Made by a program: the position numbers and the translations under genes
DNA from: a virus
Lineage: Duplodnaviria > Caudoviricetes
Reading direction: 5' to 3' (one strand)
IMG/VR virus record: IMGVR_UViG_3300022173_000099
Span: 1 to 30,246 of that record
DNA length: 30,246 nucleotides
Notes under the pieces: generated by a model
Told to the model about the DNA's origin: nothing
Seen by the model: only the letters and a program-made list of their open reading frames with translations
The model's database searches: none
Shown here: one piece after another, positions 13,793-30,246 of the stretch
Position numbering within the stretch: position 1 is the first letter of the stretch
Layout of the letters: each line of letters opens with the position of its first letter

Positions 13793-16728
13793 TGCTCTCC
13801 AAGCACGCGGCGGCCCGTCTCCGTTGGGCAAAGGATCCTCGCGCGGCGGCGCGCGGCGGGTTCTGGCTCACGCTCCTGTACTACGTGATCGTGTTCGCGT
13901 TGTCGGAGATCCTGCGACCGAAGCCGAAGCTGGAGAACGCGAAGCCCGCCGGGCTTGGTGACTTCAGCTTCCCGACGGCGACCGAGGAGCGCTTTGTCCC
14001 GCTCCTCTGGGGCACCGTCCAGATCACGGGGCCGAACGTCGTGTGGTGGGGCAACCTCGTCCAGGAGGCCATCACCGAGAAGGTCAAGACCGGGATGTTC
14101 AGCTCGGACACGATCACGAAGGGCTACCGCTACTCGGTCGGGATCCAGAGCGCGCTCTGTCGCGGCACCGTCAACTCGCTCCTCCGCGTCTGGATCGGTG
14201 ACGACGAAGTGTTCAGCGGGACGGTCGCCCACGGCGGGACGTTCACGATCAACGAGCCCGAGCTGTTCGGCGGCGAGGACTTGGGCAGCGGAGGCGTCGT
14301 CGGCACGCTCAAGTTCTTCGCGGGCGGGAACACCCAGGCGGTCTCCTCGTACCTCGCCCAGTTCCAGCAGGTCGGCGTCAACCTCAAGACCCCGGCCTAT
14401 CGCGGGACGTGTTACGTCACGTCCGACACCGAGCCGGTCTACGTCGGCAACTCGACCTCGATCAAGCCGTGGAAGTACGAGCTGCGGCGGATCCCGAACG
14501 GCCTGGGCCTCTCCGGCTCGGGCGCGGTCAACACCGCCGACTCGAACCCGATGAATGTAGTGTACGAGGTCCTGACCGACCTCGAATGGGGCCTGGCCAT
14601 TCCCTCGTCGATGATCGACACGGCCTCGTTCACGGCCGCCGGGAACACCTGTGCGACCGAGGGCAACGGCTTCAGCTACCTCCTGGACTCCCCGATCGAG
14701 GCGAGCGAGATCATCGCCCTCATCGAGCAGCAGGTGAGTGGGATCGTGTTCTTCAACCAACTCACAGGCAAGTTCCAAGTCCGCCTCGCGCGCGCCGACT
14801 ACGTGTTGGGCTCGATCCCGGACCTGAACGACACCAATATCCTGGAGTTCAACTCGTTCGCCCGAGGCTCCTGGGAAGACACGACCAACTTCATCCGGTC
14901 CCAGTTCAACGACCGCGCGGACAACTACAAGGGGACCTTCGCCCTCGCCATCGACTCGGCCAACATCCGGATCCAGGAGGGTGCCATTGTCTCCTCAACT
15001 GTATCCTACCCCGGAGTCAAGGACCGGGACTTGGCCAACGACCTCGCCTGGCGCGACCTCCGAACCCTCGCCATCCCGCTCGCCAAGGCGAACATCACGG
15101 TGGACGCGACCAACTACGCCCTCCAGCCGGGGCAGCCGATCAAGATCACCAACGCCGACCTCGGCGTGAACGGGGTCGCCTTCCGCATCACGCGCATCGA
15201 CTACGGCGAGATGACGGACAACAAGATCAAGCTCGACCTCGTGGAGGACGTGTTCTACTACCTGGCCGCCTCCTTCGGAGCGCCGATCGACTCGGGCTGG
15301 GAACCGCCGCTGGACAACCTCCAGGCGTTCCTGACCCTGGAAACGCTCAAGTTCGAGTCCCCCCGCGCCTTCAACGCGCGTGACCCGTTCTCCGTCGGTC
15401 CGGCCGACAATCGCATCTTCGCCTCGGCGCGCAAGCGCGGGGTCGAGGTGACCTTCAAGGTGTACCAGAAAACTGACGGTGCCCCGGACTCGGCCTACTT
15501 GCAAGCGGCGGAGGGCGTGAAGTTCCTCCGGATCGGCGAGCTGACCTCCGCACTCGACACGACCGGCGCGGTGCCGATCACGACCCTGAACATCACCTGT
15601 ACGCCCGACGCCCAGGCCCGTCTGTTGGAGCTGTTCCAGGACGCCCCGAGCGCGGCCGTCCTCGGGCTCGACCTCTCGCAGCTCGTGATGATCGACAACG
15701 AGTTCATCCTAGTCACGGACGCCTCGGCCTCGGGCGCGACCGTCAACCTGGAGAACGTGTACCGGGCCGTCATGGACTCCCCGCGCGCGAAGCACGCGGC
15801 CGGAGCCGACGTGTGGATGCTCTCGGGCGGGGGCTTCGTCGGCGGAGTCACCTGCGGACCGTTCAACGAGCTGGCCTCGATCGACCTCAAGCTGGTCCCG
15901 CGCTCCGCCTCCGACATCGTGGCCCTCGCCTCGTGCGTCGAGGAAGAGGTGGACATGGCGAAGCGCTCGCGGCGGCCCTACCCTCCCTCGCGGGTCTCGA
16001 TCGGCGGAACCGCTTGGGCTACGACCGTCGCCCTCGAACAGCTCGGAGGCGGAGCCGAGGTCACGGGGTTCGCCTCGACCTGGCTCCGACGCGACTACCG
16101 GACCGGAGACGGGGCCGACGAGATCGCGGCCCTCACGGTGGACGCGGCGACCCTGTTTGCGAGCTTCCCGACGGCTAACACGACGGTCCACACGGTTCGC
16201 ATCTACAACGACCCGCTCGGGGCCAACACCCTCCTCCTCACCTACAGCAGCCTTGGCGGGACGAGCCAGAACCAACTCCGCCTCGCCATCCTGAAGGCGA
16301 CCAACGGGGTGCTCCCGACGCGGCTGGCCATCGAGATCGACGCCATCCACACGGACAACGGCGAGGTCTTGACGGCGCGCTACACGCTCCGCCACGAGTT
16401 CAACATCACGACCGCGCTCACCGGCCAGTTCAACTTCGGCGCGAAGGCGGCCAACCTCAACTCGAACATCTACACGGCGACGGTCGCGGGGACGTACGCC
16501 CTCACGCTGTCCTCGGCCTTCACACTCGGGAACGTCCAGGCCTCGATCAACGGCGGAGCCTTCGCCACGATCATCGCGGCGGGCGCGACCACGGGGAACA
16601 TCCTCGGCGTCCTCGTCTCGGACACGATCACGCTCCGCCACACCTCGACCGACGTGTTGGCCCTCAAGCAGCTCGACGTGAACGCTCCTGGCGCTGGCCA
16701 GGACGGCTACATGGTCCTCTTCACCTGA
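13789..16728 (+). CDS. Central tail tip / host-specificity protein (gpJ-like), with a fused N-terminal small tail-assembly domain
   Basis: ATG at 13789 (or 13792) overlaps the previous stop. About 979 aa with PAYRG, NP..VVYEVLTD.EWGL, and G.F...L.RADY tail-tip motifs. Confidence 0.82.
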   Translation: MMLSKHAAARLRWAKDPRAAARGGFWLTLLYYVIVFALSEILRPKPKLENAKPAGLGDFSFPTATEERFVPLLWGTVQITGPNVVWWGNLVQEAITEKVKTGMFSSDTITKGYRYSVGIQSALCRGTVNSLLRVWIGDDEVFSGTVAHGGTFTINEPELFGGEDLGSGGVVGTLKFFAGGNTQAVSSYLAQFQQVGVNLKTPAYRGTCYVTSDTEPVYVGNSTSIKPWKYELRRIPNGLGLSGSGAVNTADSNPMNVVYEVLTDLEWGLAIPSSMIDTASFTAAGNTCATEGNGFSYLLDSPIEASEIIALIEQQVSGIVFFNQLTGKFQVRLARADYVLGSIPDLNDTNILEFNSFARGSWEDTTNFIRSQFNDRADNYKGTFALAIDSANIRIQEGAIVSSTVSYPGVKDRDLANDLAWRDLRTLAIPLAKANITVDATNYALQPGQPIKITNADLGVNGVAFRITRIDYGEMTDNKIKLDLVEDVFYYLAASFGAPIDSGWEPPLDNLQAFLTLETLKFESPRAFNARDPFSVGPADNRIFASARKRGVEVTFKVYQKTDGAPDSAYLQAAEGVKFLRIGELTSALDTTGAVPITTLNITCTPDAQARLLELFQDAPSAAVLGLDLSQLVMIDNEFILVTDASASGATVNLENVYRAVMDSPRAKHAAGADVWMLSGGGFVGGVTCGPFNELASIDLKLVPRSASDIVALASCVEEEVDMAKRSRRPYPPSRVSIGGTAWATTVALEQLGGGAEVTGFASTWLRRDYRTGDGADEIAALTVDAATLFASFPTANTTVHTVRIYNDPLGANTLLLTYSSLGGTSQNQLRLAILKATNGVLPTRLAIEIDAIHTDNGEVLTARYTLRHEFNITTALTGQFNFGAKAANLNSNIYTATVAGTYALTLSSAFTLGNVQASINGGAFATIIAAGATTGNILGVLVSDTITLRHTSTDVLALKQLDVNAPGAGQDGYMVLFT

Positions 16729-17303
16729 TGTCCCCCTCCTTCCTCATCCTCGGTCGGCCGCGCTCGCGGACCGCTTGGGCAGCGAACCTCCTGACGGTCT
16801 CGCCCGCGAGCCACTGCCTCCACGAGGGCTTGGCTGACACGGGGACGAGCCTCAAGAGACTCGCGGAGCGGATGTCGATGCTACACGCCAGCGTAGTGGG
16901 CGACGCGGACACCGGGCTCATCCACTACCTCGATGCGATCCCGGAGGCGTTCCCGGAGGCGAAGCTGGTCCTGATGACCGGCAACGACGCCAGTTGGAAG
17001 CGCTGGTGCTTCCAGAACGGCCTCCCGGCCGAGGTCCGAGCGAAGGTGGACAACGACTACGCACGAGCGCTGAAGCTCCTCGCGGGTCACGCCCACTTCG
17101 CCGACTGCAAGGCGATCACCTCAGACCCCCTCGCGGCGAGGAGTCTGTGGGAGTACTGCGTCCCCAATGTCCCCTTCGACCTCCCCCGGTGGGAGCTGCT
17201 GAAGGACCTCAACATCCAAGTCATCCCCGAGTCCTTGGGGAGACGGCTCCGACGGTCAACCGACCTAGGCGCGCTTCGACAACTCGACCCGAGACCCCGA
17301 TGA
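16728..17303 (+). CDS. Hypothetical protein with a sulfotransferase-like P-loop
   Basis: N-terminal FLILGRPRSRTAWAANLL...CLHE resembles the PAPS-binding (5'-PSB) loop G.PRSGT.W..L...HE. Coupled to the tail tip gene. Confidence 0.55.
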   Translation: MSPSFLILGRPRSRTAWAANLLTVSPASHCLHEGLADTGTSLKRLAERMSMLHASVVGDADTGLIHYLDAIPEAFPEAKLVLMTGNDASWKRWCFQNGLPAEVRAKVDNDYARALKLLAGHAHFADCKAITSDPLAARSLWEYCVPNVPFDLPRWELLKDLNIQVIPESLGRRLRRSTDLGALRQLDPRPR

Positions 17304-22768: not shown

Positions 22769-24615
22769 TGTTCATCGCCTATCCGGACTCCCTCCCGCCG
22801 CGCTACAACGCCGGTACTCGTTGCGACGCGCTGAGCGGCCCCTGCGCCTGCGGTGCCTGGCACGAGCTTCCACCGCAACCCCTAGCCAGAACACCGCGCA
22901 AGATGATTGGCCCCCAGCTCCCGTTCTCGGACAACCTGCACGCCTCCAAGTACCGCTCCCCCGGGGAGTCCTTCGGCGAGTCGCAGGACCGTGTGGCCTC
23001 GGCCCTGACCACGACCCCGGACCAGTACCAGGCGACCAGGGAGATCATGCGGGGCATGCGCTTCATGGCAGGAGGTCGCGTCCAGAGCGCGGCCGGAGCG
23101 CCGAAGGTCACGACCCCCTACAATTGCTTCGTCTCGGGTCCGATCGCGGACAGCTTCGTCCACGGCGACGGCTGCATCATGGACCGCGCGAAGGAGGCCG
23201 CCGCGACGATGCGGATGGGAGGCGGGATCGGCTACGACTTCTCGACCCTGCGCCCGCGCGGGGCGACCATCAAGAAGCTCGGCAGCGTCTCGTCCGGCCC
23301 GGTCGCCTTCATGGACATCTTCAACGCGGTCTGCCACTGCACCGCAAGCTCGGGGAACCGGCGCGGCGCACAGATGGGCGTCCTCCGCGTCGATCACCCG
23401 GACATCGTGGAGTTCATCCAGGCCAAGCAGAACGAGACCCGCCTGACGGGCTTCAACGTCTCGGTCGCGGTGACGGACGAGTTCATGCGCGCGGTCCGCG
23501 ACGGCTCGACCTTCGACCTCCGCTGGGGCGGCGAGACCTGGGAGACGATCGACGCCCGGAACCTCTGGGACATGATCATGCGTTCGACCTACTCGTGGGC
23601 CGAGCCGGGCGTGCTCTTCATCGACCGGATCAACGAGCAGAACAACCTCGCGTACTGCGAGACGATCGTGGCGACCAACCCGTGCGGTGAGCAGCCCCTC
23701 CCGCCTTTTGGCGCCTGCCTCTTGGGCAGCTTCAACCTCGCCCAGTACATCGAGACGTACGACCACGGTGGAGCGCTCGGCTACGTGTTCAACCGGAGCC
23801 GGTTCGCCCACGACATCCCTCTGGTCGTCCGAGCGATGGACCGGGTGGTGGACGTGGCGCATTTCCCGATGAAGGAACAACAGGTGGAGGCGCTGTCGAA
23901 GCGGAGGATGGGGCTCGGCGTCACCGCGCTCGCCAACGCGGGCGAAGCCCTCGGCCACCCCTACGGCGGCAACAACTTCCTGACCTTCGAGGAGATGGTG
24001 CTCACGATCCTTCGTGACGAGGCGTATCGGGCCTCGGCGCTCCTCGCCAAGGAGCTGGGGCCGTTCCCGTTGTTCAAGCGGGACGAGTACCTGGCCCGGC
24101 CGTTCATCCAGACGCTGCCCAAGGACATCCGCGAGCTGATCGCCCAACACGGGATCCGCAACAGCCACCTCCTCTCGATCGCCCCGACGGGGACCATCAG
24201 CCTCTGCGCGGACAACGTGTCGTCCGGGATCGAGCCGGTGTTCAGCTACACGCAGAAGCGGGTCGTCAAGACCACCGACGGCGAGGAGACGCACGAGCTG
24301 GAGGACTACGGCGTGCGCGTGTTCGGGATCCGAGGCCGCCGAGCCGAGGAGGTCTCCCCGCAGGAGCACCTGAACGTCCTGGCGATGGCCCAACGGTACG
24401 TGGACAGCTCGGTCTCCAAGACCATCAACCTCCCGGCGGACATCCCGTGGGAGTCCTTCAAGCTGGTCTACATGAACGCCTGGGAGCAAGGCTGCAAGGG
24501 CTGCACGACGTACCGGCCGGGGAAGCGGGGAGCGGTCCTCACCTCGGCGGACGACGACCTGCGCCCCTCGACCTGCTCCCTCGATCCGGTCACCGGCAGA
24601 AGCAATTGCGAGTAG
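22768..24615 (+). CDS. nrdJ: Ribonucleotide reductase, probably class II (adenosylcobalamin-dependent)
   Basis: NCFV, GGGIGYDFSTLRPRG, RRGAQM, TNPCGEQPL, CLLGSFNL, SIAPTGTIS, SVSKTIN and a C-terminal Cys pair. No beta-subunit gene adjacent. Start is 22768 (TGATG coupling) or 22903. Confidence 0.88.
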   Translation: MFIAYPDSLPPRYNAGTRCDALSGPCACGAWHELPPQPLARTPRKMIGPQLPFSDNLHASKYRSPGESFGESQDRVASALTTTPDQYQATREIMRGMRFMAGGRVQSAAGAPKVTTPYNCFVSGPIADSFVHGDGCIMDRAKEAAATMRMGGGIGYDFSTLRPRGATIKKLGSVSSGPVAFMDIFNAVCHCTASSGNRRGAQMGVLRVDHPDIVEFIQAKQNETRLTGFNVSVAVTDEFMRAVRDGSTFDLRWGGETWETIDARNLWDMIMRSTYSWAEPGVLFIDRINEQNNLAYCETIVATNPCGEQPLPPFGACLLGSFNLAQYIETYDHGGALGYVFNRSRFAHDIPLVVRAMDRVVDVAHFPMKEQQVEALSKRRMGLGVTALANAGEALGHPYGGNNFLTFEEMVLTILRDEAYRASALLAKELGPFPLFKRDEYLARPFIQTLPKDIRELIAQHGIRNSHLLSIAPTGTISLCADNVSSGIEPVFSYTQKRVVKTTDGEETHELEDYGVRVFGIRGRRAEEVSPQEHLNVLAMAQRYVDSSVSKTINLPADIPWESFKLVYMNAWEQGCKGCTTYRPGKRGAVLTSADDDLRPSTCSLDPVTGRSNCE

Positions 24616-24634
24616 CGCGCGAGCGCGGTAGGAT
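24606..24634 (+). promoter_or_regulatory. Sigma70-type promoter, probably producing a leaderless mRNA
   Basis: TTGCGA (24606-11), 17 bp spacer, TAGGAT (24629-34). The GTG start begins 7 nt after the -10 box. Confidence 0.55.
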
Positions 24635-24640
24635 TCACCC

Positions 24641-25501
24641 GTGAAGTACGATCAACTCAGCGTCGAGGCGTTCGGATCCGCGCTCCTGGAGACCCAGGAC
24701 CTGGATCCCATCTACGTCGGCCTCAACGGGGCCAAGCTCGACGACGTGCAGCGCAACCGCTGGCTCCTCGCCTACTGGTGCCTGTACGACGCGGGCTCGG
24801 CGTGCTTCATGGCGGAGCAGCGGACGGCGGAGGGCTTCTGGACCTACCTCCAGGCCGCCGCGATGAATCACGAGGTCGTCCCCGCTCCGATCGGCGGGCG
24901 CTGGAGGCGCGCGGCGGAGCGGAGGCACTGGCGCGGCGAGAACGCCATCAAGTCCTACGCCTACCTCCGCGAGCGCTACAAGATGTACCCCGAGGACATG
25001 GCGGCCTACTGCGCTCAGGGCAAGGGTCCGCTCCTCCCGGGGATGCCGCCCGAGACCTTCGCGGCGGTGATGAAGCGCGCGCAGGAGCACGTCGCCTTCG
25101 GTCCCTGGATCGGCTTCAAGGTCGCCGACATGGTGGAGCGTTGTATGGGCGTCCCGGTCTCATTCGACGAGGCCGCCCTGGCGTTGTTCGATTCCCCCGC
25201 CGAGGCGGCGGCGATCGTGTACGCCGAGAAGTTCCCCGGGATCGAGCCCAACTCGAAGGCGACCCCGCTCCTCTGGAGCTGCGCGTACCTCAAGGACCAG
25301 TTCAAGGACCGGAAGGCTCCGCCCGCGCTCGATCGAGCGGTGGGCTTGCAGGAGGTCGAGACGATCCTGTGTAAGTGGAAGAGCCACCGCAACGGGCACT
25401 ACCCCGTCGGCAACGACACGGCGGAGATCCGCCACCACCTCAAACCCTGGCTGCCTCACTCGGCCATCGCGTCGCGGTTCTTCGCGGCCCTCCCCTCATG
25501 A
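24641..25501 (+). CDS. Amino acid:DNA transferase (aGPT-Pplase2-like; thymidine hypermodification)
   Basis: Motifs DLDPIY, WLLAYWCLYD.G.A, ERRHWRG, FGPWIGFKVADM, LQEVETILCKWK match my recollection of this glycosylase-fold family. Clustered with radical SAM and P-loop kinase genes. Confidence 0.8.
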   Translation: MKYDQLSVEAFGSALLETQDLDPIYVGLNGAKLDDVQRNRWLLAYWCLYDAGSACFMAEQRTAEGFWTYLQAAAMNHEVVPAPIGGRWRRAAERRHWRGENAIKSYAYLRERYKMYPEDMAAYCAQGKGPLLPGMPPETFAAVMKRAQEHVAFGPWIGFKVADMVERCMGVPVSFDEAALALFDSPAEAAAIVYAEKFPGIEPNSKATPLLWSCAYLKDQFKDRKAPPALDRAVGLQEVETILCKWKSHRNGHYPVGNDTAEIRHHLKPWLPHSAIASRFFAALPS

Positions 25502-26019
25502 GACTCCTCGGCTCGCGCCAAACGAAGAAGGTCACGGACTGGATGTTCTGGCGCTGGATGGACATCATCCCGCGAGGCCAGGACCGCTACTTGGTCCGCC
25601 TGTACCTCATCAACTGCCCCTGGTTCGGCCTCAAGCTCCACTGGTTCGAGGGACCGGACCCGGATCAGGACTGTCACGACCACCCTTGGTGGTTCCTCTC
25701 CTGGGTCCTCCGGGGAGGCTACACCGAGAAGCGGCAGGAGGTCGTCCACCCGTACGAGGGCTGCCTGCGGACCGAGGCCAAGCCGATGTGGGTCCGGTCG
25801 CAGTGGTTGGAGGTCCGCCGTCGCTGGTCCTGGTGCTTCCGCTCCCCGACCGACGTGCACTCCATCATCAAGATCGAGCCGAACACGATGACGTTCATCA
25901 TCAACGGCCCTCGGGTCCGCAGCTGGGGCTTCTGGGTCCCTGTGAAGTGGAGCGACAAGGTCCGCTTCGTCCCGTGGAAGAAGTACCTGGGGCTGGAAGA
26001 GTCCACCCCGGAAGTCTAA
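25498..26019 (+). CDS. Cupin-fold metalloprotein (cysteine dioxygenase-like phage family)
   Basis: ATGA overlap. LHWF..PD....HDHPW.F.S.VL.GGY.E motif plus a downstream H (DVHSI) and C-terminal G.R.R.WGF. Confidence 0.72.
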   Translation: MRLLGSRQTKKVTDWMFWRWMDIIPRGQDRYLVRLYLINCPWFGLKLHWFEGPDPDQDCHDHPWWFLSWVLRGGYTEKRQEVVHPYEGCLRTEAKPMWVRSQWLEVRRRWSWCFRSPTDVHSIIKIEPNTMTFIINGPRVRSWGFWVPVKWSDKVRFVPWKKYLGLEESTPEV

Positions 26020-26414
26020 TGGAAGCCACCACCGAACGCCGAAGAGGGAGCATGAAGATCATGTTGGTAACCATGCTCCAGTCCGAGGTTCCGGCCTCGA
26101 TCCCGTCCGACAACGTGCCCGAGCTGATCGCGGTCTGGCTCCGAGCCGATCCGAAGGACAAGAAGCGGATGACCACCTGGATGGATCGGGTGGAGGCCGA
26201 GAAGCTGGTCATGCGAGCGCACCGCGAGGGCTACCAAGTCCTCTGTCTCGGCCGCGACTGCCGCAACGCCTTCGAGTTCCGCGACACGGGGACGATCAAC
26301 CGGAACACGAGCCCGAAGGCGGGCGAGTGGTACGAGGTCCCGACCTCGGGGAGCCTCCCGGCCCTCCCGATCGCCTGGGTGGAGACCGGACGCCTCACGG
26401 AGTTCTTCGGTTGA
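26019..26414 (+). CDS. Hypothetical protein
   Basis: TAATG coupling at 26019, or an alternative ATG at 26052 with GGGAG SD. Fills the gap in the operon with phage-like codon usage. Confidence 0.65.
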   Translation: MEATTERRRGSMKIMLVTMLQSEVPASIPSDNVPELIAVWLRADPKDKKRMTTWMDRVEAEKLVMRAHREGYQVLCLGRDCRNAFEFRDTGTINRNTSPKAGEWYEVPTSGSLPALPIAWVETGRLTEFFG

Positions 26415-27298
26415 ACTTCGCCCCCGCCATCGCGGCCCTGGAGTCCATGCTGGGTTCCAAGGAGCCCTTCGACAAGGCCGCGCTCCCGCTCGCCTACGAT
26501 GCGATCAGGGGTTCCATGTACGAGAACAAGTACCGGGGCGCACACGACGAGTACCCCGACCTGCCGCGCGCGGTCGCCCGCGCGCTCGAACGACTGCAGG
26601 CCATGCCGGATGACCCGAGGCCGCTGGAGTGGGCAGGCGACCTACCGCCGGTCGGCATCGGCTGGGGCACCTACGGCTGGAAGGGAGATGGGCTCTGCCT
26701 GCGCGCGGCGATCGACGGCGGGGCGGTCCTGATCGACACCGCCGCAACCTACGGCTACGGCCGGGTTGAGCGCGCCCTTGGCTCGAACGGAGTCCGCGAG
26801 CGAGGGACGACCTGGTTGGCCACCAAGTTCGCTCGCAACCACGCCCGCCGCGCACCCGTCCTTGCCTCCCTTGGGCGAAGCCTGAACGCCCTCCAGGTGG
26901 AGCGGATCGACCTATTCCAGCTCCACTGGCCGACCCCGGCCGTGGTCCCCTTCGAGGAGACCCTTGGAGCGATGCTCGAAGCCCAGCGGAGCGGGAAGGC
27001 TCGTGCGCTCGGACTCTGCAACGTCTCGGTGGACCAGCTCGACCTCGCGCGCCGGTTCGCGCCCATTGCGGCCGTCCAGGTTCGCCTGAACATGTACGAC
27101 CTCTCGGCGCTCGGACCGCTGATGGACTACTGCGGCCGGAACGACATCCGCCTGATCGCCCACTCACCGTGTGCCCAAGGGGCGACATGGAAGGGGGGCC
27201 GACCGGACTTCACCTGGTTCACCAACCGGGGCTTCATCCCCATCCCGGGGTCCAACGACCCGGAGCACATCCTGGAGAACCTCAATGCGAACGTGTGA
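26411..27298 (+). CDS. Aldo/keto reductase with N-terminal extension
   Basis: TTG start overlapping the previous stop, GGAG upstream. IGWGTY, IDTAATYG, E..LG, LATKF, SL..L....IDLFQLHWP and GKARALGLCN motifs; the D-Y-K-H tetrad is present. Confidence 0.85.
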   Translation: MNFAPAIAALESMLGSKEPFDKAALPLAYDAIRGSMYENKYRGAHDEYPDLPRAVARALERLQAMPDDPRPLEWAGDLPPVGIGWGTYGWKGDGLCLRAAIDGGAVLIDTAATYGYGRVERALGSNGVRERGTTWLATKFARNHARRAPVLASLGRSLNALQVERIDLFQLHWPTPAVVPFEETLGAMLEAQRSGKARALGLCNVSVDQLDLARRFAPIAAVQVRLNMYDLSALGPLMDYCGRNDIRLIAHSPCAQGATWKGGRPDFTWFTNRGFIPIPGSNDPEHILENLNANV

Positions 27299-28157
27299 CC
27301 TCATCGTCGTCGGCGGAGGGTACTGGGGCGCGGCCGTGGCCTTCGAGGCGGGGCTACGCGGCCTCCAGGCGGTCGTCCTCGACGACTCCGACCCGCGCTC
27401 GGGCTCGCGCAACGCCTCGGGGATCCTCCACCCCAAGACCTACTCCAGCCCGCTGTTCAAGAAGTACATGCCGGACGACTGGACGAAGGATGATCTGGCG
27501 GCCTCGTTCGCATGGCTCAAGAAGCACTGTGGCGCGGTCGAGACCGTCGAGCACTTCACCAACTGGACGCGGACCGACCTCGGCGTGCGCAAGCTCCCCG
27601 TCGGCTACTACCTGCCCTCGAACGAGGCCCTGACCGGGCTCGTCATCCCGATCGGCGTCAAGGTCGTGGACATCATCTCGCAGGACGGCGATTGGATCGT
27701 GAACGGCATCATCCGCGCGCCTCGCCTCGTCGTCGCGGCGGGGATCCACACCGACGGAGTGCTGGCCCTCGCGGGCGTCGCGCCGGTCGGCGTCACGGCC
27801 CTCTTCGGGCGCGGGCTCGGAGTTCGCGGGCCGACCCCGTACCCCTCACCCCTTGTCGTCCAGACGCGGCCCTACAGGAAGTTCGAGACGCGGCCTTGGG
27901 GCGACCTCATCCGCGTCGGCGACACCGCCGAGGTCCGGCCGGACGAGGCCAAGTACCGCGCCGAGCTTCGCGCGGTCGCCGACTGGCTCGCCCCCGGGAG
28001 CGAGACGGTCCGCTGGTTCGAGGGCTACCGCCCTGTCTGTGAGAAGTTCACCGTGCGCCTCGTCGCGCCCGGACTCGTCGCCGCAACTGGCGGACATCGG
28101 ATGGGGCTCGGACTCTCCGGCCTCGTCGCAACCAAGACCCTCGGACTCCTACCATGA
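27285..28157 (+). CDS. FAD-dependent oxidoreductase (D-amino acid/glycine oxidase-like)
   Basis: DLIVVGGGYWG Rossmann motif, GSRNASG, VVAAG, EGYRP, ATGGHRMGLGLS. Confidence 0.85.
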   Translation: MRTCDLIVVGGGYWGAAVAFEAGLRGLQAVVLDDSDPRSGSRNASGILHPKTYSSPLFKKYMPDDWTKDDLAASFAWLKKHCGAVETVEHFTNWTRTDLGVRKLPVGYYLPSNEALTGLVIPIGVKVVDIISQDGDWIVNGIIRAPRLVVAAGIHTDGVLALAGVAPVGVTALFGRGLGVRGPTPYPSPLVVQTRPYRKFETRPWGDLIRVGDTAEVRPDEAKYRAELRAVADWLAPGSETVRWFEGYRPVCEKFTVRLVAPGLVAATGGHRMGLGLSGLVATKTLGLLP

Positions 28158-28330
28158 AGCTCGCGCTCGCCTGCATCCTCGGCATCCCCCTCATCCTCGT
28201 CGCCTTGATCGTGGCAGCGGCTTGCTTCGCTGCCTGGATCGCGGTATCCTTGGTCATCGTGGCCCTGGGACTGGTGGCGCTCGTCATCGCCCTTCCGGCC
28301 ATCGCCCTCTTCTCGTGGGCCGTGAAGTAG
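28154..28330 (+). CDS. 58-aa hydrophobic membrane protein (absent from the ORF track)
   Basis: ATGA overlap. MKLALACILGIPLILVALIVAAACFAAWIAVSLVIVALGLVALVIALPAIALFSWAVK-TAG fills the gap before the radical SAM gene. Confidence 0.7.
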   Translation: MKLALACILGIPLILVALIVAAACFAAWIAVSLVIVALGLVALVIALPAIALFSWAVK

Positions 28331-28336
28331 AAGCCA

Positions 28337-29767
28337 ATGGAACAAGACGCAATCAAGCCGGACGGCGAGCAGTGGTGGGAGTCTGAGGAGCACGACGGGG
28401 AGCTGACCCGCGAGAAGTACAAGTGGTACATGCGCCCGGAGCCCAACCCGATCCTCGGGCCGATCGAGACCGAGGAGGATCCGGTCACCGGACGGACGAT
28501 GCGCTGGCGCATGGTCGGCGTCTCGATGATGCGCGGGGCCGAGAAGAAGCCCCTGAAGGTCTACCTCGACCCGATGCCCCACATCAGGATCAAGGACGCG
28601 AAGGAGCTGCAGGGCTGGTACCAGAGCCGCCACTGGCCGGGGATGGAGGACGAGACGGGCTCGAACCTCGCCAAGCGCCCTCGTCCCTGCTACACGGACG
28701 CGATGCTCACGGAGCCCTACGGGGGCTACTGTGCCGTGGGTTGCGCCTTCTGTTACATCAACTCGGGGTTCAAGGGCTACCGGGGCTCGGGTCTGATCAG
28801 CGTACCCATCGGGTACGGCGAACAGATCGCCAAGCAGCTGTCCAAGCTCAAGACCGCCACGGCGGGCTACTTCAGCTCGTTCACCGACCCGTTCCTGCCG
28901 CTGGAGGACTACTACCACAACACGCAGCAGGGCGCGGAGGCGTTCGACCGCGCCGGGCTCCCCGTGTTCTTCCTCTCGCGCCTCCACTACCCCGGCTGGG
29001 CGATGGACCTCCTGACGAGGAACAAGTACAGCTACATGCAGAAGAGCATCAACTGTCCCGACCAGGACAAGTGGAAGAAGCTCTCACCCGGCGCCATCTC
29101 GCTCGTGGACCACTGCGCGGAGATCGCCGAGGCTCGCCGACGGGGCGTGTACGTCTCGATCCAGGTCAACCCGATCGTCCCCGGAGTCGTCTCCCACGAT
29201 GATGTCGTGGCGACGTTCGAGATGCTGGCCAAGGCCGGGGCCAACCACGTCATCGTCAAGTTCGTCGAGGCGGGCTACAACTGGGCTCCCACGATGATCG
29301 AGCGGATCCGCAAGCGCTTCCCCGGCGCGGAGGCGGACGAGTTCGAGCGCCTGTTCACGCAGAACATCGGCGGACAGCGCACGATCGAGGAGGGCTACCG
29401 GATGCAGGGCCACGACCTGTACAAGCGCGCGGCCACGAAGCTCGGGCTGACGTACGCGACCTGTTACGAGTACGAGTACCAGCGCGACGCCACGGGCGAG
29501 ATCGTGAACAAGGTCGGCGTCTCGGTCGGCGCGCGCTACCTCACGGGTGATCAGTGCCACGGGCACCGCGTCCCGATGTTCACCCGAGAGGACCTGGCCG
29601 CTCCGTTCAAGGAGTTCGAGGCCTGCCCGCCGTCCGGCTGCCTGACGTGCGCGAGCCCGACGGACCCGAAGGCGAGCCCCTGTGGCTCCAAGGTGTTCGG
29701 CCTCGCCAAGGCACTCAAGCTCAAGGACTTCCGGGTGTCGATCCGAGAGGACGCGAAGAACCCGTGA
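28337..29767 (+). CDS. Radical SAM enzyme (spore photoproduct lyase-like; probable DNA base isomerase/modifier)
   Basis: EPYGGYCAVGCAFCY (CxxxCxxC at about 28730-28753), SSFTDPF.PLE, IQVNPIVPG and a Cys-rich C-terminus. Lies in the hypermodification cluster. Confidence 0.88.
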   Translation: MEQDAIKPDGEQWWESEEHDGELTREKYKWYMRPEPNPILGPIETEEDPVTGRTMRWRMVGVSMMRGAEKKPLKVYLDPMPHIRIKDAKELQGWYQSRHWPGMEDETGSNLAKRPRPCYTDAMLTEPYGGYCAVGCAFCYINSGFKGYRGSGLISVPIGYGEQIAKQLSKLKTATAGYFSSFTDPFLPLEDYYHNTQQGAEAFDRAGLPVFFLSRLHYPGWAMDLLTRNKYSYMQKSINCPDQDKWKKLSPGAISLVDHCAEIAEARRRGVYVSIQVNPIVPGVVSHDDVVATFEMLAKAGANHVIVKFVEAGYNWAPTMIERIRKRFPGAEADEFERLFTQNIGGQRTIEEGYRMQGHDLYKRAATKLGLTYATCYEYEYQRDATGEIVNKVGVSVGARYLTGDQCHGHRVPMFTREDLAAPFKEFEACPPSGCLTCASPTDPKASPCGSKVFGLAKALKLKDFRVSIREDAKNP

Positions 29768-30183
29768 CCGCCGACTTCGACGCTGGGAACAAGAAGCGCA
29801 AGGTGACCCTCGATGAGTGGCACATCGAGGGCGCGCGCCGGTACGGCCTGAACGTCGTCAAGTGGCGCTTCGTCTGCCCGTCCTGTGGGATGGTCCAGAC
29901 GGGAGAGGACTGGCGCTCCTACGGCACGTCGGTCCGCGACATCGACCGGCGCTTGGGCTTCTCCTGCATCGGGGGTCGCATCAAGGCCGTCTGTCCGACC
30001 GCCGATGTCGTCGAGTACGCCGAACCCAACCGTGGGTTCGGATGCGTGTACGAGGGAGGCGGGATGTTCCGCCTCAACCCGGTCGAGGTCGTGTACGGCG
30101 TGATCGCCGAGACCCAGCAGCCGGGGATCCGTGAGACCTTCGAGTGGGCAGACCCTCTGCCCGAGGAAGCCAAGCCATCATGA
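29764..30183 (+). CDS. Cys-rich putative Zn-binding phage protein (VVA0879-like)
   Basis: GTGA overlap. W..EG.RRYG.....WRFVCPSCG, FSCIG, GCVY..GG.F.LNP. Confidence 0.6.
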   Translation: MTADFDAGNKKRKVTLDEWHIEGARRYGLNVVKWRFVCPSCGMVQTGEDWRSYGTSVRDIDRRLGFSCIGGRIKAVCPTADVVEYAEPNRGFGCVYEGGGMFRLNPVEVVYGVIAETQQPGIRETFEWADPLPEEAKPS

Positions 30184-30246
30184 TCGTGAACGTCCGAGGC
30201 GGAAGCGGAGCGGGGAAGTCCACCGTGATCCGAGCCATCATGGTCT
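30180..30246 (+). CDS. P-loop kinase, probable 5-hydroxymethyluridine DNA kinase (3'-truncated by the window edge)
   Basis: ATGA overlap. MIVNVRGGSGAGKSTVIRAIM has an N-terminal Walker A in the I.N.RG..G.GKST form. The neighbourhood supports the call, but only 22 codons are visible. Confidence 0.6.
   Translation, partial: MIVNVRGGSGAGKSTVIRAIMV

What the first reader, a model, noticed from the sequence alone, without database searches (positions are those of the whole stretch)
24641..30246. Thymidine-hypermodification operon with a non-canonical tailoring set: candidate new modified DNA base
Seen: nine genes almost all coupled by stop/start overlaps, behind their own promoter. In order: amino acid:DNA transferase, cupin, unknown, aldo/keto reductase, FAD amino-acid oxidase, small membrane protein, radical SAM, Zn protein, P-loop kinase. 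Established: in Pseudomonas phages M6 and PaMx11 and Salmonella phage ViI, 5-hmdU in DNA is phosphorylated by a 5-hmU DNA kinase and substituted with Gly or Ser by an aGPT-Pplase2 transferase. It is then tailored by radical SAM isomerase plus PLP decarboxylase (M6), FAD oxidoreductase plus acetyltransferase (PaMx11), or PLP decarboxylase (ViI). Inference: no PLP enzyme or GNAT is visible here, and I know of no characterised pathway using an AKR. A plausible route is N-glycyl-T, rearranged by rSAM to C-alpha-glycyl-T, oxidatively deaminated by the FAD enzyme to a 2-oxo acid, then reduced by AKR to a hydroxy acid (lactyl-type dU), perhaps further oxidised by the cupin.
Basis: partly seen in the sequence, partly recalled or inferred. 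Interest (0 to 1): 0.92.

Follow-up and report, generated by a model that had tools for sequence, protein, structure and literature searches.

The report
Phage oxidase-reductase route to new thymine
An uncultured phage carries genes matching the known enzymes that attach glycine to thymine in viral DNA, but a flavin oxidase and an aldo-keto reductase stand where its relatives keep a decarboxylase, so it likely makes an undescribed hydroxy-acid DNA base that could be tested in a tube.

Summary
The genes are real. The transferase keeps all six glycine-pocket residues, and the radical SAM enzyme is 59% identical to M6 gp53. The FAD enzyme has the fold of PaMx11 gp47, and the AKR has an intact catalytic tetrad. 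The contig ends 22 codons into the kinase.

Among 129 deduplicated related clusters, rSAM+FAD+AKR occurs 6 times, never with a PLP enzyme or GNAT. All 69 rSAM+PLP clusters lack FAD and AKR; 30 FAD-without-rSAM clusters lack AKR. The pair fills the PLP slot in three gene orders, scattered across the rSAM tree (one origin rejected). AKR-paired oxidases lost gp47's base-flanking Trp51 (8 of 8; kept in 31 of 31 others).

Likely route: N-alpha-GlyT, then C-alpha-GlyT, a 2-oxo acid, and 5-(2-carboxy-2-hydroxyethyl)-dU (316.09 u). The last two steps are inferred. Cupin, Zn, membrane and unknown genes look like passengers; a separate promoter is not shown. No paper found describes an AKR here. This scan noted the same gene set before on other DNA (two findings). 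Verdict: new variant of a known kind.

The parts
24641..25501 (+). Amino acid:DNA transferase (aGPT-Pplase2), glycine type; core
   Evidence: PF18724 4.3e-20; 50.8% to PaMx11 gp46, 44.7% to M6 gp51; catalytic C244, metal ligands E240/T241, and pocket D22, E93, K160, K245, Y254, D259 present, matching the YuA glycine pocket D24, E96, K159, K248, Y257, D262 (PMC13458397)
25498..26019 (+). Cupin (phage 'cysteine dioxygenase' family); likely passenger
   Evidence: phrog_4786 1e-33; also in PLP-type L005 (47%); absent from the other 5 FAD+AKR clusters; 75 phage records, 50 of them Mycobacterium phages
26019..26414 (+). Unknown protein, 120-131 aa (start 26019 or 26052); likely passenger
   Evidence: no Pfam, PHROG or NCBIfam hit; no usable Atlas hit; found only in the window among 142 clusters (single-sequence model)
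26411..27298 (+). Aldo-keto reductase of a phage subfamily with a helical N-terminal extension and short C-terminus; core
   Evidence: PF00248 1.1e-34; model pLDDT 88.8 with three extra N-terminal helices; tetrad D109, Y114, K139, H172 and extension R42 invariant in 51 of 51 extension-bearing representatives
27285..28157 (+). FAD amino-acid oxidase of the PaMx11 gp47 (NGTO) type with an altered base pocket; core
   Evidence: PF01266 1.3e-17; best PDB match 8Z79 by profile 4.6e-15 and by fold, TM 0.80; keeps P196-Y197 and R249, has R272 for K268 and T52 for W51
28154..28330 (+). 58-aa hydrophobic protein; passenger
   Evidence: absent in close relative L022, where the FAD gene is followed directly by the rSAM gene
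28337..29767 (+). Radical SAM enzyme, orthologue of the M6 gp53 glycinylthymine isomerase; core
   Evidence: 59.3% to M6 gp53 over residues 14-466; CAVGCAFC motif and conserved C376, C407, C430, C435
29764..30183 (+). VVA0879-family Cys protein; lineage passenger
   Evidence: NF041591 7.8e-20, Atlas PF28055 0.96; only in the window's close kin L005, L022, L189
30180..30246 (+). First 22 codons of the P-loop 5-hmdU DNA kinase, cut by the contig end; core
   Evidence: Walker A motif; first 20 residues identical to the kinase of L022 and similar to PaMx11 gp49
24606..24635 (+). Possible weak promoter (8 of 12 consensus), not shown
   Evidence: read from the sequence; below the scan's threshold; GGTAGGATT shared with the same gap in L005

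Best explanation
The cluster encodes a kinase, a glycine-type transferase and an M6 gp53-like radical SAM enzyme that likely build C-alpha-glycinylthymine in phage DNA, and its FAD oxidase and aldo-keto reductase would then turn that amino acid into a 2-oxo acid and on into a 2-hydroxy acid, predicted to be 5-(2-carboxy-2-hydroxyethyl)-dU. Steps: (1) 5-hmdU is phosphorylated (inferred from the kinase fragment and relatives). (2) Glycine is added through N (inferred from orthology and pocket residues). (3) The radical N-to-C shift follows (inferred from 59% identity to the enzyme shown to do it). (4) The flavin enzyme oxidises C-alpha-N, releasing ammonia and leaving uracil-5-yl-pyruvate on DNA, 314.075 u as nucleoside (inferred). 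(5) The AKR reduces the ketone with NAD(P)H to uracil-5-yl-lactate, 316.091 u (inferred). FAD+AKR is a swappable alternative to the PLP decarboxylase. The base would be anionic where M6's 5-NedU is cationic, and would likely shield the DNA from host nucleases, as the known bases do.
For: Co-occurrence in 129 clusters: rSAM+FAD+AKR 6, none with PLP or GNAT; rSAM+PLP 69, none with FAD or AKR; FAD without rSAM 30, none with AKR (broader PLP and GNAT models changed no AKR locus). Slot swap in three gene orders: window vs L005; L007/L006/L024 vs L098, L099, L129, L151; L010 vs M6 order. The rSAM tree needs 5 changes, at least 4 forced by starred branches, and one clade is rejected, p-AU 2.7e-57. 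Complete genome G001 has no PF00291 or PF00583 match; complete PLP-type G004, the M6 record and the PaMx11 record have no AKR. Trp51 is lost in 8 of 8 AKR-paired oxidases from two separate lineages and kept in 31 of 31 others, while the DNA wedge Tyr and carboxylate Arg are kept (residue roles from PMC11472151). The AKR tetrad is intact. The top solved AKR by profile, Tm1743, reduces an aryl 2-oxo ester to the 2-hydroxy ester (abstract of PMC5479831).
Against: No product was measured; steps 4 and 5 rest on context and family chemistry. The same AKR subfamily also sits in another cluster type (L011, L012, L015) beside a methyltransferase-like gene and two other rSAMs, with no DAO-family gene found in G007 (84% complete) or G008 (77%), so it does not always need an oxidase. 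The only characterised relative of the FAD enzyme acts on N-alpha-GlyT. The Trp loss is only 2 independent events. The 6 positive clusters were sought with FAD or AKR seeds or were part of the seed alignments, and many loci are fragments. L010 also carries a SAM methyltransferase gene that could change its end product. The window's own hmU synthase and any downstream PLP or GNAT gene cannot be seen.
Confidence: 0.55

Rival explanations
1. Same entry, shorter product. The oxidised intermediate loses its carboxyl group, giving 5-carboxymethyl-dU (286.08 u) through peroxide, or an aldehyde that the AKR reduces to 5-(2-hydroxyethyl)-dU (272.10 u).
For: The same gene logic supports it. gp47-type oxidases make H2O2 (PMC11472151), and peroxide decarboxylates 2-oxo acids (own knowledge). 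AKRs often prefer aldehydes (own knowledge).
Against: No decarboxylase is in any FAD+AKR cluster. Carboxymethyl-dU would leave the AKR without a job, yet it travels with the oxidase in 6 of 6 rSAM clusters.
Confidence: 0.15
2. Two parallel branches. The FAD enzyme is an ordinary gp47-type lyase making 5-aminomethyl-dU plus glyoxylate, the AKR clears free glyoxylate, and the rSAM product C-alpha-GlyT stays as a second base.
For: The closest structure is gp47. Sister oxidases in Kozie, L008 and L028 occur without an rSAM.
Against: 30 of 30 FAD clusters without rSAM manage without an AKR. AKR-paired oxidases lost Trp51 twice. The AKR's conserved extension and special residues are unexpected for a housekeeping glyoxylate reductase.
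Confidence: 0.14
3. Stereo-inversion or amine recycling. The oxidase makes the imine of C-alpha-GlyT and the AKR reduces it back (or aminates the ketone), fixing one stereoisomer of an amino-acid base of 315 u.
For: An oxidase plus a reductase can deracemise amino acids, and a radical recombination may give mixed isomers (own knowledge). It fits the PLP-slot swap equally.
Against: Primary imino acids hydrolyse fast in water (own knowledge). The AKR has the standard carbonyl-reducing tetrad.
Confidence: 0.08
4. AKR and FAD genes are metabolic cargo unrelated to the DNA base.
For: Four other genes in this operon are passengers.
Against: The pair recurs in three gene orders in the PLP slot, the oxidase is of the DNA-binding gp47 fold with its wedge Tyr, and PLP is never present with it (0 of 6).
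Confidence: 0.05

Closest known systems
Pseudomonas phage M6 / YuA 5-NedU pathway (gp51 transferase, gp52 PLP decarboxylase, gp53 rSAM isomerase, gp54 kinase; PMC8989533)
   Same: Transferase 44.7%, rSAM 59.3%, kinase start, and the position after Dda helicase and ribonucleotide reductase.
   Different: No PLP decarboxylase; an AKR and a FAD oxidase take its place. The product is predicted to be acidic, not the amine 5-NedU.
Pseudomonas phage PaMx11 5-AcNmdU pathway (gp46, gp47 flavin lyase NGTO, gp48 GNAT, gp49; PMC8989533, PMC11472151, PDB 8Z79)
   Same: Transferase 50.8%; FAD enzyme of the same fold (TM 0.80) with wedge Tyr and carboxylate Arg.
   Different: Only about 26% identity to gp47, Trp51 lost, no GNAT, and an rSAM isomerase and AKR are present, which PaMx11 lacks.
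Bacterial aldo-keto reductases such as Thermotoga Tm1743 (PDB 6KIK, 5DAN) and AKR11B
   Same: Barrel fold and Asp-Tyr-Lys-His tetrad.
   Different: About 75 extra N-terminal residues with an invariant Arg, found in 0 of 105 ordinary AKR hits; shortened C-terminal loops; in the loci read here it sits only in phage gene clusters with radical SAM or DNA-modification genes.
Microbacterium phage Kozie gp1-gp4 (Tet/JBP-like oxygenase, transferase, FAD enzyme, kinase)
   Same: Closest FAD relative in a cultured phage, about 31-33%.
   Different: No rSAM or AKR in the 10.7 kb read; its oxidase keeps the Trp.

Membership tests
Glycine-type aGPT-Pplase2 transferase | Catalytic Cys and metal-binding Glu-Thr (PaMx11 C247, E243, T244) | tested here: met
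   C244, E240, T241
Glycine-type aGPT-Pplase2 transferase | Glycine pocket D24, E96, K159, K248, Y257, D262 (YuA numbering) | tested here: met
   D22, E93, K160, K245, Y254, D259, all invariant in alignment A4; definition from PMC13458397
M6 5-NedU pathway | gp53-type radical SAM isomerase with two Cys sets | tested here: met
   59.3% identity; motifs; activity itself not tested
M6 5-NedU pathway | PLP decarboxylase | tested here: not met
   none in the window, in any AKR locus, or in whole records G001 and G002; the window's genome is incomplete
M6 5-NedU pathway | 5-hmdU DNA kinase | tested here: inconclusive
   only 22 codons present; they match the kinase of L022 and L005
M6 5-NedU pathway | dUMP hydroxymethylase supplying 5-hmdU | not testable with these tools
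   contig ends; present downstream in kin L005 and L189 and in L006, L007, L010/G002, L024
PaMx11 5-AcNmdU pathway | gp47-fold flavoenzyme with Tyr180 wedge and Arg242 | tested here: met
   Y197, R249; TM 0.80 to 8Z79
PaMx11 5-AcNmdU pathway | Base-flanking Trp51 of gp47 | tested here: not met
   T52 in the window; lost in 8 of 8 AKR-paired oxidases
PaMx11 5-AcNmdU pathway | GNAT acetyltransferase | tested here: not met
   none in the window or AKR loci; one weak hit in G002 (E 0.037) had no Pfam match
Aldo-keto reductase superfamily | Barrel fold with Asp-Tyr-Lys-His tetrad | tested here: met
Aldo-keto reductase superfamily | NAD(P)H-dependent carbonyl reduction, and its substrate | not testable with these tools
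   needs an assay
Any thymidine hypermodification pathway | Modified nucleoside detected in virion DNA | not testable with these tools
   no cultured phage with this gene set was found

The most novel reading that the evidence does not exclude
These phages make an undescribed acidic DNA base, uracil-5-yl-lactate, through a gp47-type flavin enzyme re-tooled twice to deaminate C-alpha-GlyT and a dedicated aldo-keto reductase subfamily that reduces a ketone on a flipped-out base in DNA. It would be the first aldo-keto reductase known to me to act on a nucleic-acid polymer, with at least 51 divergent members also serving a second, kinase-free modification cluster.
Probability: 0.5. Interest if true: 0.82.

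Novelty: new variant of a known kind. Interest (0 to 1): 0.7.

Why it matters
It predicts a new natural DNA base with an exact mass, and two new activities on DNA: oxidative deamination of a base-linked amino acid and its reduction by an AKR. The repeated swap between a cationic end product (PLP route) and a likely anionic one (FAD+AKR route) on the same scaffold would test the idea in PMC8989533 that modification-specific host nucleases drive chemical diversification. The 2-oxo acid intermediate would also be a ketone handle for labelling DNA. The published M6 reconstitution system makes the test direct.

Tried and rejected
Single-sequence scans of viral contigs with the FAD and AKR proteins found nothing; alignments were needed.

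The cultured-phage collection gave no M6-like phage with this AKR: 54 records, all under 60%, none Pseudomonas or Bordetella, 40 listed.

Complex prediction of FAD oxidase with AKR returned 'no answer'; it is not used either way.

The promoter scan was empty. The cupin as a tailoring enzyme was rejected. The unknown protein stayed unassigned. A weak GNAT hit in G002 was rejected.

Literature: searches returned no paper joining an AKR to phage DNA hypermodification; some searches listed papers, and one search counted 0 occurrences of the AKR term in its 3. 'aldo' and 'AKR' are absent from the text of PMC8989533 and its one held supplement; 'aldo' is absent from the text of PMC13458397, and its one held supplement has only an aldolase. 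Figures are not held, so Fig. 2 and Fig. S15 of PMC8989533, which draw unusual gene combinations, could show such a cluster. The 2013 Iyer/Aravind survey could not be read and may mention these neighbours. Subscription journals are mostly not searched.
Full report
Setting. The window is a whole 30,246-bp virus record. It holds a tailed-phage head and tail module, then SNF2 and Dda helicases and a ribonucleotide reductase. The same Dda-RNR-transferase order precedes the modification genes of Pseudomonas phages M6 and PaMx11. The record stops 22 codons into the last gene.

Observation. The nine ORFs exist in the order given, and 7 of 8 junctions overlap. GC3 is 0.82-0.93, close to the 0.88-0.94 of seven upstream genes. 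A separate promoter is not shown: the scan found none and the gap after RNR is 25 bp. A weak 8-of-12 site can be read there, and nine bases of it recur in relative L005.

Known core. The transferase matches PF18724 and is 50.8% identical to PaMx11 gp46 and 44.7% to M6 gp51. It keeps the catalytic Cys and metal ligands described for gp46 (PMC11472151, results read in parts 2-5). It also keeps all six residues of the YuA glycine pocket, two of which were enough to switch a diamine transferase to glycine (PMC13458397, passages and one section read). The radical SAM protein is 59.3% identical to M6 gp53, which was shown to isomerise N-alpha-GlyT, with C-alpha-GlyT as the authors' predicted product (PMC8989533; abstract, introduction start, four results sections and discussion read). 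The kinase fragment is identical over its first 20 residues to the kinase of L022. Close kin L005 and L189 carry the helical partner and dUMP hydroxymethylase downstream, so the window's phage likely does too.

The unusual pair. The FAD protein's best solved match is PaMx11 gp47, by profile (8Z79, 4.6e-15, first of 31) and by fold (TM 0.80), although identity is about 26%. The AKR has an intact tetrad and about 75 extra N-terminal residues that fold as three helices. Among the best 150 hits of a profile search, 51 representatives carry this extension; all 51 keep the tetrad and an Arg at position 42. None of 105 ordinary AKR hits carries it.

Slot swap. The nearest PLP-type relative, L005 (rSAM 77%, RNR 80%), reads RNR, transferase, cupin, PLP decarboxylase, rSAM, Zn protein, kinase. 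The window has unknown-AKR-FAD-membrane exactly where L005 has the PLP gene. I gathered 197 loci from phage, viral, metagenome and genome collections (the two large scans kept the best 80 of 97 and 80 of 99). With the window added and two whole-genome duplicates dropped, loci with a hit merged at 95% identity into 142 clusters, 129 with a transferase or gp53-type rSAM.

Counts: rSAM+FAD+AKR 6, none with PLP or GNAT; rSAM+PLP 69 (2 also with GNAT), none with FAD or AKR; rSAM alone 13, many cut by contig ends; FAD without rSAM 30 (10 with GNAT), none with AKR; the other 11 have neither rSAM nor FAD. Broader PLP and GNAT models added one PLP hit, in the non-AKR locus L068. The six positives are not a random sample: they were found with FAD or AKR seeds or were in the seed alignments. 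The exclusions do not depend on that.

The pair fills the PLP slot in three gene orders. On a tree of 82 rSAM proteins (6 partial ones left out) the FAD+AKR state needs 5 changes, at least 4 forced by well-supported branches. Apart from the window and L022, which pair up, the nearest rows shown are PLP-type. One clade is rejected, p-AU 2.7e-57. G001, a 60,552-bp record with terminal repeats rated 100% complete, has the full set and no PLP or GNAT match. Complete PLP-type G004 has no AKR or DAO match. Four FAD/AKR homologue pairs share contig lengths (4525, 7351, 4410, 5235), which suggests more neighbours; their context could not be read.

Changed pocket. In gp47, Trp51 flanks the flipped base, Tyr180 is the wedge, and Arg242 likely binds the carboxylate. 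In 39 oxidases (2 short ones left out), the wedge residue is Tyr in 38 and Arg242 is kept in all. Trp51 is kept in 31 of 31 without an AKR and lost in 8 of 8 with one, and these 8 fall in two separate, well-supported lineages. In C-alpha-GlyT the carbon to be oxidised lies one atom closer to the ring than in N-alpha-GlyT, so the base must sit deeper; losing the Trp would make room. This is my inference, from two independent events.

Mechanism. The simplest reading is that FAD+AKR act on the rSAM product. Oxidising C-alpha-N is the same chemistry gp47 performs, but on the branched isomer it releases ammonia and leaves a 2-oxo acid on the DNA (314.075 u). The AKR would reduce this to 5-(2-carboxy-2-hydroxyethyl)-dU (316.091 u; masses). 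Tm1743, the top solved AKR by profile, reduces an aryl 2-oxo ester in this way (abstract start of PMC5479831), which shows only that the family can do it. I give this route 0.55. Rivals are a decarboxylated product (0.15), parallel branches with glyoxylate clean-up (0.14), stereo-inversion (0.08) and unrelated cargo (0.05).

Against. No product has been measured. The AKR subfamily also occurs in a second cluster type in large phages, between two other rSAM genes. There its neighbour is a gp47-like oxidase in L018/L019 but a methyltransferase-like gene in L011, L012 and L015, with no transferase in four such records and no DAO gene in G007, G008 or G009, all incomplete. Its carbonyl can therefore arise without this oxidase. 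L010 also has a methyltransferase gene inside the cluster.

Passengers. The cupin occurs in 3 of 142 clusters (window, L005, L071) and the Zn protein in 4 (window, L005, L022, L189); the unknown and membrane genes were found only in the window (one- or two-sequence models, so distant copies may be missed). L022, 97% identical in the rSAM, lacks the membrane gene. The cupin family is common in mycobacteriophages.

Novelty. The searches and texts named under Tried and rejected show no AKR in any thymidine hypermodification pathway. PMC8989533 does mention uncharacterised combinations of rSAM, PLP and flavin genes in metagenomes, so the rSAM+FAD pairing may have been seen; its figures could not be viewed. 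The cluster fails membership of both the M6 and PaMx11 pathways on a defining enzyme, but works like a hybrid of them with a new last step. This scan's earlier notes e1-9792704 and e1-9806692 report the same set on other DNA, and e1-5916776 reports the second cluster type. They are unchecked AI notes and are not counted as support; my slot-swap reading was written down before I saw them.

Verdict. New variant of a known kind; interest 0.7.

Noticed in passing
L011 6185-11948, L012 6212-12299, L014, L015 6167-12368, L018 5952-12646: A second cluster type in large phages: SPL-like rSAM, then a gp47-like oxidase or a methyltransferase-like gene, the same extended AKR, a second rSAM, an unknown gene and a weak LPG-synthase-like transferase. 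No ADDT was found in 4 incomplete records.
   Followed up: partly
L024 848-3367: The gp53-type rSAM gene is interrupted right at its CxxxCxxC motif by an intein-like insert with an endonuclease domain, and an HNH gene lies upstream.
   Followed up: no
L010 12118-13274: A SAM methyltransferase-like ORF and an HD-like ORF (labels from my reading of the sequences) lie between rSAM and kinase in a FAD+AKR cluster, with an MT-A70 gene further on; a methylated end product is possible.
   Followed up: no
window 27058-29772 vs L022: DNA identity to L022 is 92.9% over the rSAM gene but 78.5% over AKR-FAD and about 68% beyond, pointing to recent recombination inside the cluster.
   Followed up: no
L004 5956-9356 (with L070, a contig of the same length): PLP decarboxylase and gp53-type rSAM flank an LPG-synthase-like ORF, with no transferase hit in the 17 kb read; L070 has transferase and kinase without tailoring genes, so the pathway may be split across the genome.
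   Followed up: no
L089 6700-9400: An rSAM-kinase-transferase cluster without PLP or FAD carries other ORFs, one resembling a 2-oxoglutarate oxygenase (my reading of the sequence); another candidate tailoring route.
   Followed up: no
L003 1-3273 (Microbacterium phage Kozie), L008, L009, L081, L097: Tet/JBP-like oxygenase with a FAD enzyme and, in most, a transferase and kinase. Kozie is a cultured phage whose four genes are annotated as hypothetical, so its base could be measured.
   Followed up: partly
L005 11550-12305: A TET-associated glycosyltransferase gene (PF20691) sits between the helical partner and the hydroxymethylase in the nearest PLP-type relative, suggesting an added sugar modification.
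   Followed up: no
window 16728-17303: A sulfotransferase-like P-loop protein (PF13469 weak, phrog_10855) follows the tail genes.
   Followed up: no
L122, L134, L154: gp53-type rSAM genes occur in contigs of 248-288 kb, two with a PLP gene, so the module reaches jumbo phages.
   Followed up: no
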